Assembly: GCF_057098645.1 (NCBI RefSeq)
Contig: NZ_CM169472.1
Length of the DNA stretch: 64,000 bases
Direction: 5' to 3' (one strand)
Below, piece by piece: positions 33,001 through 39,000 of the stretch (positions are counted from its first letter, which is position 1; each line of letters starts with the position of its first letter). The position numbers were made by a program.

Positions 33001-36000
33001 TTTTTCTGCTTCTGCCGGAGGAATATGGCCCAGCCTTTCCAGCAATCGTCGATTGTTATACCAGTCCACCCACGTGAGTGTGGCCAGTTCCACTTCTGCA
33101 CGGTTTTTCCAGCTCTTACGGTGTATTACCTCCGCTTTGTAAAGACCATTGATGCTCTCCGCCATCGCGTTGTCATACGAGTCGCCAGTACTCCCTGTTG
33201 ATGCCAGTAATCCGGCTTCCTTAAGCCGCTGCGTGTAGGCCAGCGATACATACTGAGAACCTTTATCACTGTGATGGATTGTGCCGGACGGCCGACGGGC
33301 CCACAACGCCTGCTCCAGTGCATCCAGCACGAATGTTGTTTCCATGGATGATGAGACCTGCCATCCCACGATGTATCCGGCGAACACATCAATGATGAAC
33401 GCCACATAAACGAAGCCCCGCCATGTGCTGACGTAAGTAAAATCAGCCACCCACAGCTGGTCAGGTCGTTCTGCCACGAACTGACGGTTTACGCGGTCGC
33501 CTGCGGCAACGGCTTTCCGGCTGATGGTCGTACGGACCTTTTTACCCCGGAGAACACCGGCAAGTCCCATAACTGCCATGAGACGTGCCACAGTGCATCT
33601 GGCCACTCTGATACCTTCCCGTAACAACTGACGCCAGACTTTACGCACACCGTATACCTGGTGATTTTCATCGTATACGCGCTGTATCTCTTTCTTCAGC
33701 CAGTCATCGTGCTGCGCACGGGCACTGCGTTTATCCGGATGATGTCGCTGTTGCTGACAGTGGTAATACGTTGACGGGGCAATATGCAGTTCGCTGCATA
33801 GCGGTCCGACCCCGTACTGCTCACGCAGCTTATCCAGCAGTGGCATCATTTTTTCCAGAGGCGGTCGAACTCCGCCTTCGCAAAATAAGCGGAAGCCTGG
33901 CGAAGGATATCGTTACTGCGGCGCAGTTCACGATTTTCACGCTCCAGCTCTTTCAGACGCTGACGTTCAGCGGTGGTGAGCCCGCCATCACCGCCCCCGG
34001 TATCCCGCTCATGCTGGCGAACCCAGACACGCAGAGTCTCCGGCGTACAGCCAATCTTTGGAGCAATGGAACAAATTGTCGCCCATTGTGAGTCATATTC
34101 ATCCTGACTTTCCAGAACCATACGAATCGCCCGCTGACGGACTTCGGGGGAAAAACGAGTATTTTTAGTCATCCTGTTTACCTCTTTCTCAGGGAGTTTA
34201 GTCTCCAGGATTTCCGGGGCGGTTCACTCTGATGTTTTTCTCCACCCATGCCAGCGCCTTATCACGCTCAATGGCGTTAACCCGGTCGCATTTTTCCTTC
34301 GACAGCTTCATGCCAGGAATAACAGGCTTACCATCCACCCGGGTGGCTCCACGGCAGATGGTCCAGATACCCGCACCATCACGGTATGCTGTGGTGTGGT
34401 TACCTTCCTTTTCATCCAGAAACTGGTCGAGGATTTCAGGCGCAGACGCCCCTGCACCAATCAGCGCCAGAACGGCAGCCGACAGGCCGTATCTGATTTT
34501 TGCGTTCATGGATATTTATCAGGGTTTATCGATTTCAAATCCCTGGATATGTTAAGTCTTCAGGCCAGCGGTGGAGTCTTCAGAGAACCCGTAATTATTC
34601 CCGGTAGTTTTCCTCTGTAGGTTATCAACACATCCTGCGCCTCTAAAATTACGGGACGCTTTTCCGGTAACGGACCATCCCCTTCACATAACCCGGCAGC
34701 AACATCCATGAAAAACTGCTTCGCCTGCTTTTTCGCCTCAGCTTCGTAAAACTCCAGCGTGGCACCTTCAGTACGGTCAAGACTAATCGCCACATCTGGC
34801 AACAACAGTGACGGATACCCACCAATTTCCAGTGCCACAGTAACAGTAATCTTATCCGGGTAATTATTTATCCCTTTAACAACCAGTTCGTATTTTTTCT
34901 TCATCACTTTACTCTCCCCGCGCCGCCTTACGCCGGTCTTCTTTAATCTTGAAATACAGGTTCGTCAGATATGTCAGCAGCCCAAACAGCAGACTCCCCA
35001 GCACGCCTATCGCCACCCACTGGGACGGAGAGACTTTGTCCAGCAGCTGCAGTAACCAGTATCCCGTCCCCACCGCTGACGTGGTGTATGACACACCCGT
35101 TGTGATTTTTTCCATCTGGTACATACCCCGTCTCCCGTTATCCGGAAGCTGACAACAATAAAAAAGCCACCAGTTAACTACTGATGGCTCTGATAACTCA
35201 TGCAGGCGTCTCAGACGACCCACTGACACTACCGGTGAGTTTAACGATACCTTCCATTTGACTGGCTCACTTTTTATGATGATGCCGGTGCATTTATCTC
35301 CAGCACCAGACTTTCTATCTCAACGCCATACGCTGCATTTTTTGTAACATCCGTCAGCGTCAGCGCATTCAGTCCCAGTGTCATACTGTCTTTTATAACC
35401 TGGAATGCCGGGCCAGCCACTCCATTCAGTTTCGGAGTAACCGTGGCACTGCCGGCGGTGAACACCAGCTCCAGCGTCTGCCAGTCGTTACCGTAATCGC
35501 CGAACTCCCCCAGCTTCGTGTTTCCGGCTTTCCTGTGATGCATCAGATTCACTCTGCCGTCAGTGGTCTGAGTGAAGTACGACATCAGGAACGGATTACC
35601 GGTACCCGTCATCGCCACACCATCAGGAACGGGAGCATCCGTATACAGATAAATCCCCAGCCCGAACTGATTGTTGGTCAGTGCGCCTGACAGGCGGAAC
35701 TTACAGGTCAGTCTGCCGCCCTGTGTCAGCAGGGTAATTGCGTCATCCACCGGATGCGTCAGGGACCAGGTTTTATTGCTCTGCTTGGTGATCTTAAATA
35801 CACCATCTGACAACTGAATTCCGCCATCCTTAATGCTCCAGCCCTGCGCAGCAGCCTCTCCGGCTGCCGGCAGCAGGGAGATTGTGCGAACGGACGTATC
35901 TGCAGACGGACCCGATGGCGTGTTGCCGCCGGGCGAGGGTTTGATTTCCGGTGCCTTACCACTGATGAAGGCTGAGGTGCGCCCGGCTGCGTTCAGAATA

Positions 36001-39000
36001 GCGGTTGCCAGACGATCCGGAATAATGCTCCTGCGCGCCCATGAACTGAAATGTGTCGGGCGGTTTGATGATACCTGGTTTCCATTCGTTCTCGATGCCG
36101 CACCGTAATATCCTGATGCCGGAATATCCGGATCTTCTGCCGGCGCGTTAGTGGCGGTATTGACGCCGTTACCGTCTGTCATGAAGGGCACAAAATAAAC
36201 GCCCTCACTCTCCCTGTTTTTGTACGCCCCGTAAATGGTGTTGTACTGGGTGCCGTAGGTATTTTTCCAGTAATACGTCGTGTCACCACAAATCCACGGC
36301 ACATCTGCAGCACTGCCACCATGGCACTGCGCGTTAAACACGGAGAGGTCAGCACGAAACTGTGCCAGCATGGCTGTAAACAGCGCAGGTTGCTGTGCGT
36401 GGGTGGCGGCGCTCATGTCAAACTCTCCCTGCATCCAGCACACCGCCAGCAACACATTTTTCGGGTTCTTCTGTAATGCAGCTTTAGTGCGCGCAATCAG
36501 GTCCTGATATAACGGTTTACCCACACCCCAGCGCGCCGAATCCTGGCTGGCCCCCGCGTCCGCACTGAATGTCCCCTCCGCGCCCTGGGTGAATGCCGAA
36601 CCACCACGACAGCATGGTACCAGCAGGATCCCCGCGTTATTCGGGATATACGGAAGCAGTTTTTTGGCAATATGTAAGCCCTGGCCGACACAGCCGTACT
36701 GCCCTTTGCTCAGGTCTGCCTTCGGATGATTCAGCGTACTCATATCCTGCACATCATGCAGGCAGTGGTCGGCCGGAATAATATCGTTATATCTGCAGGC
36801 AGCCCCACCCGGCGTAACTGTACTGCGGCGCGCCAGCTGTTTAATGCGCGGATCCGGAGCATCGTATGAATCCGGCAGCGGAAGCCCTTCACCGTAAGCC
36901 ATGGCATTGGACTGCCCGGCCAGTACGATGACGTAGTACCAATCCGGCTCAGTTGCACCACTGACCACCACATCACCTTCTGCTGTAATCGCCTGCATCA
37001 GGGTATAAGGGGTTATGGCCACCGGACTACCAAACGGCTGCCAGCCCTCTTTCAGTTTGTGTGTCAGCTTTTCCGCAAGGTCTGACGGCGACGCCGCCCT
37101 GACAACATCATAATGTTTAAATGTCATTATTCCTCCCGGCCGGGATAGTGTATTAAATCAGATATGGAGTGGGCTGTAGTCCGGAAGCCTGAATGACACA
37201 CGGGGACTACAGCCCAAGAAATGAAAAAAGGCCACGCAGTTGCGCAGCCTGATAAACCCTGGTTAAAATCCACACGATAACAACACAACAATATCAGTAT
37301 CTCATGCTATTGCCCGAACCCATTCGGGCATTTTTTACCCATAAAAAATGCCCCTCCGGAGAGGGGCATGTTTGCATGCACATTCTTTTTCTTGCATGGT
37401 GCCGGGTGCCTCCCGGTGAATTCAGTATCAGCACCTGAATCCGCGATTATCACATATACCTGGTTGCTGATTGCCCCTCCGCACAGGGGGATTCACCATG
37501 CAGTAGTATTTTTAATAAACAGTAAACAAAAAAATCAAGCATTATGCAGGCTGTTTCTTTTTATCACCGGCCACAGCAATACCACAATGCCGCAGACCAG
37601 AGCGCCATCAGTCAGTACCAACATTATCCTGCTGGTGAAATCCATCATCACCATCACTAAAAGCAGGATCACAACAGCAAGCAGACACAGTTTATAAAAC
37701 AATGTTCAGAAAACGCATTCAGCATGCCTAAGGTTCTATTCCTACGAATAGCCAACTTGCAACTTAAAATATTATTTATGCAGCCAATTAAATTCTGGTC
37801 CTTACAATATCAACCTGAAGATTCTTATCTTGTGCTGATTGATAAATCACAAACCTTTTACTACCTGCATTGAAAGAAGTAGACAAAACCAGACAATTAT
37901 CATAACGAGCAAGAACATAATACCAACCATCATTATAATTAATCATTTCATATTCTTTCTTAAACTGCGGTTTGTAATATCCTGTCAGAAATGAAAAAAG
38001 CCAGAAATATGCCACAAAAGCAATCATCACAATCTCAAAAAAATGTTTTTTATAAATGCCTTATCATAGAAGCATGATACCGATAAAAATCGCCCATAAG
38101 ATCTTATCGAAATTGTGACCGCCAGCGCAATCGCTGCTGACAGTAGCAAAAGAGGTACCTGAATCTTCTGTCTCAATATAGAAAACTCAATAATTGCCGG
38201 CACAAACAATAATTCCACAGCAAAATAAAGGCGAAATACATTTAGCTCTTGCATAGAATGTTTTCTTTTCACTGCGAAAAAGAATACAACACCAATACCC
38301 CAACCGATAAGAAATATAGCAATGACGATAACTGCAAAAAATAAACTTCTGGCAACATCATCAACACCTGCACCTACAATCCACCATGGGAAGCCGTAGT
38401 AAAAAGAAGTACCCCATCCATAGAAATAAGCACTCCCCCATCCAAGGCATCCCATGTAGGCAATAAAAAGTGAAGAACTCCTGAGCAGCGCACCATCCTT
38501 CATAACCACCCCAATACAAGATGATAACATTGGCTTACAACTCATAACAAAAGCAATTCAATGCCGTCAAGAGATTACAGGCTAAAAAAACTCTATTACA
38601 TTGCAGTCAGCATGTTTACTACACAAATACAATTCAGAGCATAAAAACTACTCGGCGGCAGGTTATTGAGACTCATCAATGACATGTAAAAAACGCCCAT
38701 TATTGGTGTCAAGTTTCCCCAAAGTTATTCAAAAAGTCAATATTATGCCGTTAATATGTTGCCATCCGTGGCAATCATGGCGCTAACGTGTGATCGCATT
38801 CAAAATGTTGTCTGCGATTGACTCTTCCTTGTGGCATTGCACAACCAGAGCGTCATACAGCGGCTTAACAGTGCGTGACCAGGTGGGTTGGGTAAGGTTT
38901 GGGATTAGCATCGTCACAGCGCGATATGCGGCGCTTGCTGGCATTCTTGAATAACCGACGCCTTTACATCTTCCGCACTCTTTCTCAGCAACTATCCCCC

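What the first reader, a model, noticed from the sequence alone, without database searches (positions are those of the whole stretch)
35274..37369. Stx-phage-like late-region layout (Q, terminator, nanS-p, S, R) without stx
A NanS-p-type esterase directly upstream of the lysis genes and downstream of Q and a terminator is the arrangement seen in Stx-converting phages, where stxAB lies between the terminator and nanS-p. Here that interval (37128-37342) is only ~215 bp and non-coding. Two back-to-back terminator hairpins (37311-37337 plus strand, 37343-37369 minus strand) sit at the cargo/late-operon boundary.
Basis: partly seen in the sequence, partly recalled or inferred. Interest (0 to 1): 0.45.

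Follow-up and report, generated by a model that had tools for sequence, protein, structure and literature searches.

The report
Known prophage sRNA pair beside NanS-p esterase

Summary
The features are real at the stated coordinates. The 617-aa ORF (35274-37127, minus) is a three-domain NanS-p esterase. It lies upstream of S, ydfR and R, and 1.4 kb downstream of a lambda-type Q.

The reading of the intergenic region needs correcting.
- The two hairpins are not a Q-target terminator or an empty stx slot. They are the intrinsic terminators of a convergent sRNA pair: an STnc100-family sRNA (37337-37527, minus; Rfam 144.7 bits) and AgvB (37275-37336, plus; 96.5 bits, 62/62 identical to the consensus).
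- The 407-bp cassette is 100% identical to prophage Sp17 of O157:H7 Sakai. AgvB2 was found there by Hfq crosslinking, and AgvB was shown to antagonise GcvB (Tree et al. 2014).
- In Stx1 and Stx2 phages, stxAB lies upstream of this cassette. That position corresponds to window ~37504-38700, which here holds a frameshifted membrane-protein gene plus tciB.
- No stx or tRNA remnant exists.
- The layout is not Stx-specific. Phage 434, EPEC prophage PP2 and most IMG/VR loci carrying the cassette lack stx.

Verdict: already known, low interest. One minor unreported detail is a covarying stem-loop in the nanS-p leader.

The parts
38783..39406 (-). Late-gene antiterminator Q, lambda type
   Evidence: Pfam PF03589, E = 4e-58. 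202/207 residues identical to lambda Q.
38712..38740 (-). pR'-like late promoter: TTGACT (38740-38735), 17-nt spacer, GAAACT (38717-38712)
   Evidence: Aligns nearly base for base with the lambda Q-end/pR' region. The -10 element has two substitutions relative to lambda TAAATT. The function is inferred from this homology.
37788..38531 (-). Moron-slot gene 1: a 247-aa membrane protein gene, frameshifted here into 172-aa and 80-aa ORFs
   Evidence: The gene is intact (WP_001302581.1) in EDL933, O145, E2348/69 and Sakai Sp17 and Sp3. The window lacks one base in a T-run near 38045. It matches phrog_1521, of unknown function.
37535..37702 (-). Moron-slot gene 2: TciB-like DUF3927 small membrane protein (55 aa)
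   Evidence: Pfam PF13064, E = 1.4e-13. phrog_1470, TciB-like.
37337..37527 (-). STnc100-family sRNA gene on the late strand, equivalent to EcOnc06 of Sakai Sp17. The probable 5' end is G37501.
   Evidence: Rfam RF02076 scores 144.7 bits against a gathering score of 47. It is 100% identical to Sakai Sp17. Tree et al. list EcOnc06 in Sp17 at ~177 nt. The 5' end is inferred from the shared GCATGGTGAATCC start of PasD2.
37275..37336 (+). AgvB (anti-GcvB) sRNA gene, convergent with the STnc100-type gene.
   Evidence: Rfam RF02702 scores 96.5 bits against a gathering score of 56, and 62/62 bases are identical to the consensus. It is 100% identical to the Sakai Sp17 and Sp10 copies. It contains CACAACA at nt 10. 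Its 5' 21 nt pair with GcvB nt 66-85 at dG -19.4 kcal/mol. By eye, a candidate promoter is TTGCGC (37240-37245), 18-nt spacer, TAAAAT (37264-37269); this is inferred.
37223..37250 (-). Third conserved terminator-like hairpin on the late strand (AGGCTGCGCAACTGCGTGGCCT plus T-run). It overlaps the candidate AgvB -35 element.
   Evidence: Found by the terminator scan. It is conserved in Stx1 and Stx2 phages and in Sakai prophages. It aligns with the terminator of PasD2 in phage 434 and E2348/69 PP2.
37171..37215 (-). Conserved stem-loop in the nanS-p leader, with arms at 37215-37204 and 37182-37171 and a 21-nt loop
   Evidence: RNAalifold consensus on 16 distinct variants. 97% of cells are paired. 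Four pairs changed on both sides, against 1.0 +/- 0.8 in shuffles. Its function is unknown.
35274..37127 (-). nanS-p: prophage sialate O-acetylesterase, 617 aa (DUF1737 + SASA/NanS domain + lectin-like DUF6645)
   Evidence: It is 53% identical over its full length to 933W NanS-p and matches phrog_143.
35155..35191 (-). Terminator-like hairpin (12-bp stem plus T-run) between nanS-p and S
   Evidence: Terminator scan. Fold z-score -3.15 for 35150-35273. The sequence is shared with the region upstream of S in 933W. A terminator is annotated at the same place in phage 434.
34909..35124 (-). S, a class II (P21-type) holin
   Evidence: Pfam PF04971, E = 3.5e-32. Coordinates follow the EDL933 annotation.
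34560..34907 (-). YdfR/DUF1327 gene between S and R
   Evidence: Pfam PF07041, E = 1.8e-46. Annotated in EDL933.
32663..34509 (-). R lysozyme gene, split by an IS3-family element of IS629/IS1203 type (32917-34227)
   Evidence: Pfam Phage_lysozyme on the N-terminal part. BLAST to the intact R of YYZ-2008 breaks at 32919/34225, and the insert is 96% identical to the EDL933 IS1203 copies. An ALIL pseudoknot lies at 33775-33891.

Best explanation
This is the late-region 'moron' neighbourhood of the ssrA-integrated lambdoid prophage of the O157:H7/O145:H28 lineage (Sakai Sp17 / EDL933 CP-933Y type).

**Order of features (transcription runs on the minus strand)**
1. A lambda-type Q and a pR'-like promoter.
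2. A moron slot. Here it holds a frameshifted 247-aa membrane-protein gene and tciB. In Stx phages the same slot holds stxAB.
3. A conserved non-coding cassette.
4. nanS-p, then S, ydfR, R (split by an IS element), ant and Rz.

**The cassette**
It encodes two convergent, Hfq-binding sRNAs, and their intrinsic terminators are the two 'back-to-back hairpins'.
- The late-strand sRNA belongs to the STnc100 family (EcOnc06 and EcOnc27 are members). Its target is not established.
- The opposite-strand sRNA is AgvB, about 60 nt long. Its CA-rich 5' end mimics GcvB target mRNAs and sequesters the R1 seed of the core sRNA GcvB. This relieves GcvB repression of targets such as dppA. The function was shown experimentally in Sakai for an identical sequence.

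**Downstream of the cassette**
- A third conserved hairpin, homologous to the PasD terminator, and a covarying stem-loop precede the nanS-p ribosome-binding site.
- NanS-p removes the 9-O-acetyl group from Neu5,9Ac2. Activity here is inferred from homology; it has been shown for EDL933 alleles in the literature.

**Expression**
- During induction, Q-modified RNA polymerase would read through all these terminators into nanS-p and the lysis genes.
- In the lysogen, the sRNAs are expressed from their own promoters. This step is inferred for this strain.
For: **Identity of the two sRNA genes**
- Rfam matches are well above gathering scores for STnc100 (144.7 vs 47 bits) and AgvB (96.5 vs 56 bits, 62/62 identical to the consensus).
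- The 407-bp cassette is 100% identical to Sakai Sp17 and 97% identical to Sp10.
- Tree et al. [quoted passage not shown] They place EcOnc01b (AgvB2) in Sp17 and demonstrate its anti-GcvB function.
- The AgvB 5' region pairs with GcvB nt 66-85 at dG -19.4 kcal/mol, against -12.3 +/- 2.8 for shuffles.

**Same architecture in Stx phages**
- 933W has stxB2, then STnc100, then AsxR on the opposite strand, then nanS-p. Stx1 phages have the same order.
- Homology breakpoints lie at window 37503 and 37519.

**Alternative morons upstream of the same cassette**.

**Flanking genes**
- The esterase matches NanS 3PT5 at E = 4.9e-121 and NanS-p 6YP6 at E = 7.4e-30.
- Q is 98% identical to lambda Q, and the promoter region is homologous to pR'.
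- Context next to ssrA is shown; the Sp17 annotation is.
Against: - No expression data exist for this particular strain. sRNA expression, Hfq binding and esterase activity are carried over from identical or homologous sequences.
- The function of the STnc100-type sRNA is unknown. Papers offer only hypotheses.
- No convincing tR' terminator was found between pR' and the first moron ORF, and the -10 of the pR'-like promoter carries two substitutions relative to lambda. Q-dependent read-through is therefore inferred, not shown.
- The prophage is degraded (R split by an IS element, membrane gene frameshifted), so late-operon function may be lost.
- Equating EcOnc06 with the STnc100-type gene rests on an apparent ~100-140 nt offset between the paper's coordinates and NC_002695.2.
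Confidence: 0.9

Rival explanations
1. One reading: this is a former Stx phage, or an 'empty' stx site. The interval 37128-37342 is where stxAB was or would be, and the hairpins mark the cargo/late-operon boundary.
For: The nanS-p, S and R modules and the 37128-37503 cassette are 95% identical to Stx1a phages and about 75% identical to 933W.
Against: - In every Stx phage examined, stxB lies upstream of the cassette, not inside it.
- There are no stx or tRNA remnants.
- The true slot is filled by a module shared with phage 434, 2B8 and EPEC PP2 at 96-97% identity.
- Most cassette-bearing loci lack stx.
- Replacement of the moron by recombination cannot be given a direction from these data.
Confidence: 0.06
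2. The hairpins are only a bidirectional transcription insulator, with no sRNA products or function in this element.
For: They are strong intrinsic terminators facing each other. No expression data exist for this strain.
Against: - The sequence is identical to Sakai Sp17 and Sp10, where abundant Hfq-bound sRNAs were mapped and AgvB was tested genetically.
- The covariance-model matches cover the full sRNA bodies, not just the terminators.
- The GcvB-target motif is conserved.
Confidence: 0.03
3. The interval encodes a small protein: the 54-aa TTG-start ORF at 37127-37291, comparable to the 75-aa 'hypothetical protein' annotated in Stx1 phages.
For: An ORF exists, and homologous positions are annotated as CDS in YYZ-2008 and BP-4795.
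Against: - Alignments show indels of 1 and 6 nt, and different lengths among homologues, across this ORF.
- It is overlapped by the AgvB gene, a terminator hairpin and a covarying stem.
- PGAP does not call it in EDL933 or O145.
Confidence: 0.01

Closest known systems
Prophage Sp17 (Sakai) / CP-933Y (EDL933) late region, with AgvB2 (EcOnc01b) and EcOnc06
   Same: - It is integrated next to ssrA.
- The Q-to-R region is 99.9% identical to EDL933.
- The sRNA cassette is 100% identical to Sakai Sp17.
- It has the same 617-aa esterase gene (ECs_3498).
   Different: - The window's prophage is much more complete: about 38 kb from ssrA to Q, against about 13 kb in EDL933. It resembles the O145:H28 version.
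- R is cut by an IS629-type element here, rather than truncated by IS66.
- The membrane-protein gene carries a 1-bp deletion.
Stx2a phage 933W/Sp5 and Stx1a phages (H-19B, YYZ-2008, BP-4795): stxAB, then STnc100/EcOnc27, then AsxR or an AgvB-like sRNA, then nanS-p, then S
   Same: The order is the same: moron, then a convergent sRNA pair, then the third hairpin, then the leader stem-loop, then nanS-p, then S.
   Different: - The moron is stxAB (with or without tRNAs) instead of the membrane protein and tciB.
- The Q type differs.
- The anti-sRNA 5' seed differs: AsxR targets FnrS, and the Stx1-phage variant scores only 56.6 bits as AgvB.
- 933W NanS-p is 645 aa and 53% identical.
Phage 434 / lambda-like 2B8 / EPEC E2348/69 PP2: Q, membrane protein, TciB, PasD2, esterase, PasA, S
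   Same: The membrane protein + tciB moron (96-97% identity) and the esterase (95% identity) are the same. 2B8 also has the same lambda-type Q.
   Different: - These elements carry PasD2 instead of the STnc100/AgvB pair. Only the first 26 nt and the terminator are shared.
- They carry PasA between the esterase and S, which is absent here.
- 434 and PP2 have a Q82-like Q.
Chromosomal NanS (YjhS) of E. coli, PDB 3PT5
   Same: The catalytic SASA domain is strongly homologous (E = 4.9e-121), and the GQSNAMAYGEGLPLPD block is identical.
   Different: NanS-p has an extra N-terminal DUF1737 domain and a C-terminal lectin-like domain (6YP6 type), and it is phage-borne.

Membership tests
NanS-p (prophage sialate O-acetylesterase) | SASA/NanS catalytic domain | tested here: met
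   PF03629, E = 1.6e-12. NanS 3PT5, E = 4.9e-121 over residues 59-379, with the GQSN block conserved.
NanS-p (prophage sialate O-acetylesterase) | N-terminal DUF1737 and C-terminal lectin-like domain flanking the SASA domain | tested here: met
   PF08410, E = 1.1e-15. PF20350, E = 4.5e-18. 6YP6 NanS-p C-terminal domain, E = 7.4e-30.
NanS-p (prophage sialate O-acetylesterase) | Located in a lambdoid prophage late region, upstream of S | tested here: met
   The position is the same as in 933W, 434 and Sp10.
NanS-p (prophage sialate O-acetylesterase) | Neu5,9Ac2 esterase activity | not testable with these tools
   A review (PMC8065619) reports activity for the EDL933 prophage alleles. This specific allele was not verified here.
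AgvB anti-sRNA (Rfam RF02702) | Covariance-model score above the gathering threshold | tested here: met
   96.5 bits against 56, with 62/62 bases identical to the consensus.
AgvB anti-sRNA (Rfam RF02702) | 5' variable region carrying the GcvB R1 target consensus CACAACA and able to pair with the GcvB seed | tested here: met
   The motif is at nt 10. The duplex with GcvB nt 66-85 has dG -19.4 kcal/mol, and 28 of 2000 shuffles do as well. AsxR gives -9.3.
AgvB anti-sRNA (Rfam RF02702) | Convergent with a late-strand sRNA, between the moron CDS and the conserved esterase ORF | tested here: met
   The architecture is described in PMC4104026.
AgvB anti-sRNA (Rfam RF02702) | Expressed, Hfq-bound, and relieves GcvB repression | not testable with these tools
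   Shown in Sakai for the identical sequence.
STnc100 sRNA family (Rfam RF02076; EcOnc27/EcOnc06) | Covariance-model score above the gathering threshold, with a full-length match | tested here: met
   144.7 bits against 47, model positions 1-206. The score is lower than for the Stx-phage copies, which reach 186-208 bits.
Stx-converting phage | Carries stxA and stxB downstream of Q/pR' | tested here: not met
   No significant blastn or tblastn hit anywhere in the window.
Lambda-type Q antitermination module | Q protein of the lambda type, with a cognate pR'/qut region | tested here: met
   Q is 98% identical to lambda Q. The -35 and spacer are near-identical to lambda pR', and the -10 has two substitutions.
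Lambda-type Q antitermination module | tR' intrinsic terminator downstream of pR' | tested here: inconclusive
   The scan finds no terminator at 38546-38712, and the fold z-score is -0.43. The phage 434 annotation places a terminator at the position homologous to 38637-38662.
PasD / PasA sRNAs (EPEC) | Sequence similarity to E2348/69 PasD2 and PasA | tested here: not met
   Only the first 26 nt of PasD2 match (83% identity), and there is no PasA match.

The most novel reading that the evidence does not exclude
Two late-strand structures downstream of AgvB may form an undescribed cis-acting leader for nanS-p. The first is the third terminator-like hairpin (37250-37229), which overlaps the candidate AgvB -35 element. 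The second is the covarying 12-bp stem-loop (37215-37171), about 45 nt upstream of the nanS-p start codon.

Possible roles are insulating nanS-p from sRNA read-through in lysogens, stabilising or processing the nanS-p mRNA 5' end, or coupling AgvB promoter activity to late-strand transcription.

A related point is that the STnc100/AgvB cassette looks like a PasD-type sRNA gene into which an extra terminator and a convergent anti-sRNA were inserted. The ancestral terminator is retained as the third hairpin.
Probability: 0.3. Interest if true: 0.3.

Novelty: already known. Interest (0 to 1): 0.1.

Why it matters
For the scan, this locus is explained. It is a textbook example of the lambdoid 'moron' region, carrying the published AgvB and STnc100-type sRNA pair and a NanS-p esterase.

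Its practical value is for annotation.
- RefSeq records list no feature under this cassette, although it occurs at 80% or greater coverage in 692 of 5426 complete E. coli genomes.
- As a result, raw-sequence readers will keep rediscovering these 'orphan terminators'.

The comparison also fixes the exact stx insertion position relative to the cassette, and shows that the cassette–nanS-p arrangement is mostly found without stx.

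Tried and rejected
- **stx remnants.** blastn (word size 7) and tblastn with stx1AB and stx2AB against the whole window gave only chance-level hits, and none stood out in 37128-37534.
- **tRNA remnants.** ARAGORN finds only ssrA and a tRNA at 51988-52063. The 933W ileZ region matches only that distant tRNA.
- **PasA and PasD2 from E2348/69.** PasA is absent. PasD2 shares only its first 26 nt.
- **A tR' terminator between pR' and the first moron ORF.** The scan and the fold show nothing convincing.
- **Small-ORF reading of the interval.** Rejected because of frame-breaking indels among homologues.
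- **Defence or other function for the moron genes and the 590-aa ORF.** PADLOC and NCBIfam gave nothing useful.
- **Primary NanS-p papers.** Two (PMC5038053, PMC7106450) are not held, so I could not check which numbered nanS-p allele of EDL933 this one is.
- **Full-length AgvB-GcvB duplexfold.** It over-extends because it ignores intramolecular structure. It was replaced by a test restricted to the 5' region.

Full report
**Context**

The window starts at smpB-ssrA (tmRNA at 746-1108) and runs into a lambdoid prophage whose late genes are on the minus strand. The Q-to-R segment (34296-40200) is 99.9% identical to the ssrA-adjacent prophage of O157:H7 EDL933. That prophage is annotated in Sakai as 'prophage Sp17; lambda-like phage'. 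Over the left 24 kb the best matches are O145:H28 genomes, whose ssrA prophage has the same late region. The window therefore comes from an O157/O145-lineage strain that carries a fuller version of this prophage.

**Check of the observation**

- *Esterase ORF.* ORF 35274-37127 (minus, 617 aa) is present. It carries DUF1737 (E = 1.1e-15), the SASA esterase domain (E = 1.6e-12) and DUF6645 (E = 4.5e-18). Against solved structures it matches E. coli NanS/YjhS (3PT5) at E = 4.9e-121 over residues 59-379, with the GQSNAMAYGEGLPLPD block identical. It matches the NanS-p C-terminal lectin-like domain (6YP6) at E = 7.4e-30. It is 53% identical over its full length to the 645-aa NanS-p of 933W.
- *Hairpins.* Both reported hairpins are found by the terminator scan at the stated coordinates, each with a 8-9-bp GC-rich stem and a T-run.
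- *Flanking genes.* Downstream lie the P21-type holin S (34909-35124), ydfR/DUF1327 and the R lysozyme. R is split by an IS629/IS1203-type element at 32917-34227. Upstream lies Q (38783-39406), which is 98% identical to lambda Q, followed by a promoter region that aligns almost base for base with lambda pR'.

**What the hairpins are**

A covariance-model scan against Rfam gives two strong matches that end exactly at the two hairpins.
- STnc100 (RF02076) at 37337-37527 on the late (minus) strand, 144.7 bits against a gathering score of 47.
- AgvB (RF02702) at 37275-37336 on the plus strand, 96.5 bits against 56, with all 62 positions identical to the consensus.

The related AsxR model scores below threshold (43 against 63), so this is the AgvB variant.

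The whole 407-bp intergenic cassette (37128-37534) is 100% identical to Sakai Sp17 and 97% identical to Sp10. Tree et al. 2014 (PMC4104026) describe this exact arrangement:
- EcOnc01a and EcOnc01b (AgvB1 and AgvB2) are in Sp10 and Sp17.
- Their supplementary table lists EcOnc06 (~177 nt) in Sp17 on the late strand.
- They showed that AgvB carries the GcvB R1 target consensus, blocks GcvB repression of dppA, and gives a growth advantage in bovine rectal mucus.

I confirmed that the window's AgvB has CACAACA at nt 10. Its unstructured 5' 21 nt pair with GcvB nt 66-85 at -19.4 kcal/mol, against -12.3 +/- 2.8 for shuffles, -9.3 for AsxR and -11.5 for the Stx1-phage variant.

The STnc100-type RNA is the family to which EcOnc27 (sRNA103), immediately downstream of stx2B, belongs (PMC12711010). 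Its function is unresolved.

**Where stx would be**

- BLAST of the window against Stx1 phage YYZ-2008 shows homology from nanS-p up to 37503. Against 933W it runs up to 37519.
- In those phages the stxB stop codon lies about 105 and 87 bp beyond the breakpoint.
- Rfam places STnc100 and AsxR (or an AgvB-like sRNA) between stxB and nanS-p in 933W, PA28, YYZ-2008 and BP-4795.
- stxAB is therefore upstream of the hairpins, not in 37128-37342.

The equivalent slot in the window, ~37504-38700, is filled by two genes:
- a 247-aa membrane-protein gene, intact in EDL933, O145, Sakai Sp17 and Sp3, and E2348/69, but frameshifted here by a 1-bp deletion in a T-run near 38045;
- tciB (DUF3927).

The same two-gene moron, at 96-97% identity, precedes the esterase in phage 434, lambda-like 2B8 and EPEC E2348/69 PP2. 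Other stx-free prophages put tciA/tciB (with or without tRNAs) in front of the identical or near-identical cassette: PPyecE_EH1910 and Sakai Sp10.

| Upstream content | Loci |
|---|---|
| stx | 13 |
| tciA (with or without tciB) | 26 |
| membrane protein + tciB | 3 |
| other or none | 48 |

No stx or tRNA remnant exists in the window's late region.

**Other content of the '215-bp non-coding' interval**

- *Third hairpin.* A terminator-like hairpin on the late strand (37250-37229 plus T-run) is conserved across Stx1 and Stx2 phages and Sakai prophages. It aligns with the terminator of PasD2 in 434 and E2348/69 PP2. PasD2 shares only its first 26 nt (GCATGGTGAATCC...) with the window's STnc100-type gene. 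This agrees with the proposal that PasD and STnc100 have a common origin (bioRxiv 10.64898/2026.05.13.724894). It suggests that the STnc100/AgvB form is a PasD-like gene with an extra terminator and a convergent anti-sRNA inserted. This last point is my inference.
- *AgvB promoter.* By eye, the hairpin overlaps a candidate AgvB promoter: TTGCGC at 37240-37245, an 18-nt spacer, and TAAAAT at 37264-37269, which ends 5-6 nt before the Rfam start of AgvB.
- *Leader stem-loop.* A 12-bp stem (37215-37204 with 37182-37171) lies about 45 nt upstream of the nanS-p ATG. On 16 distinct variants RNAalifold predicts it. 97% of cells are paired. Four pairs changed on both sides, against 1.0 +/- 0.8 in shuffles (1 of 500 reach that value), and slid controls collapse to 26-39% paired. 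G-U pairs favour the late-strand RNA. I found no description of this element in the papers I read. It is minor but possibly new.

**What is absent or uncertain**

- PasA, which lies between the esterase and S in EPEC PP2 and Stx1 phages, is absent. The window's nanS-p-to-S spacer is only about 150 bp. It holds a strong terminator-like hairpin (35191-35163) that is shared with the region upstream of S in 933W.
- A convincing tR' between pR' and the first moron ORF was not found.
- Expression and activity in this strain are inferred from identical or homologous sequences.

**Verdict**

It is wrong about the role of the hairpins and the position of stx, and the layout is not specific to Stx phages.

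Everything central here is already published: the AgvB and STnc100-type convergent sRNAs (Tree et al. 2014), nanS-p alleles in non-Stx prophages (PMC10462455 and PMC8065619), and synteny of the sRNAs with the esterase. The cassette is common, covering at least 80% of the query in 692 of 5426 complete E. coli genomes, but it is unannotated in RefSeq.

Novelty: already known. Interest: low.

Noticed in passing
window 37171-37215 (minus strand): A 12-bp stem-loop lies about 45 nt upstream of the nanS-p start codon. It is conserved with compensatory changes across prophage variants: 97% of cells are paired, and 4 pairs changed on both sides against 1.0 in shuffles. It is not mentioned in the papers I read.
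   Followed up: partly
window 37223-37250 (minus strand); L002 and L007: The third terminator-like hairpin is homologous to the PasD2 terminator of phage 434 and EPEC PP2. The STnc100/AgvB cassette looks like a PasD-type gene with about 200 nt inserted (its own terminator plus a convergent anti-sRNA). The hairpin also overlaps the candidate AgvB -35 element.
   Followed up: partly
window 37788-38545: The 247-aa membrane-protein gene in the moron slot is intact in EDL933, O145, Sakai and E2348/69. Here it is split into 172-aa and 80-aa ORFs by a 1-bp deletion in a homopolymer near 38045. This is either a pseudogene or a sequencing error.
   Followed up: yes
window 32917-34227; also near 5842 and 44744: An IS629/IS1203-type IS3-family element interrupts the R lysozyme gene, so the prophage is probably lysis-defective. 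Three copies of this IS lie in the window, marked by ALIL frameshift pseudoknots at 5842-5958, 33775-33891 and 44744-44860. One of them abuts ypjA.
   Followed up: partly
window 35155-35191 (minus strand): A strong terminator-like hairpin (12-bp stem plus T-run) lies just upstream of S, in the short nanS-p-to-S spacer. It occupies the position where EPEC and Stx1 phages carry PasA, but it has no similarity to PasA. It could be the nanS-p 3' end or another sRNA.
   Followed up: partly
window 41754-43526 (plus strand): A 590-aa ORF lies opposite to the early-right genes. It belongs to phage family phrog_9230 (unknown function) and has no Pfam, NCBIfam or PADLOC match. It is annotated as hypothetical in O145.
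   Followed up: partly
window 37368-37697 (plus strand): A 109-aa plus-strand ORF corresponds to Sakai ECs_3499 ('hypothetical protein'). It runs antisense across tciB and the STnc100-type sRNA gene and is probably a spurious call. PGAP annotates the DUF3927 gene on the other strand instead.
   Followed up: no
window 28969-30165 (plus strand): A 398-aa ORF, which looks by eye like an IS110-family transposase (not checked against any library), is inserted between the terminase genes and the HNH endonuclease and lysis region of the prophage.
   Followed up: no
window 10756-10822 (plus strand): There is an Rfam match to sar RNA, the P22-type antisense RNA of the ant region (66.7 bits against a gathering score of 43), within the prophage's tail and effector region.
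   Followed up: no
window 51988-52063 (minus strand): A tRNA with anticodon CAT lies outside the prophage and is 90% identical to the ileZ tRNA carried by 933W upstream of stx2.
   Followed up: no
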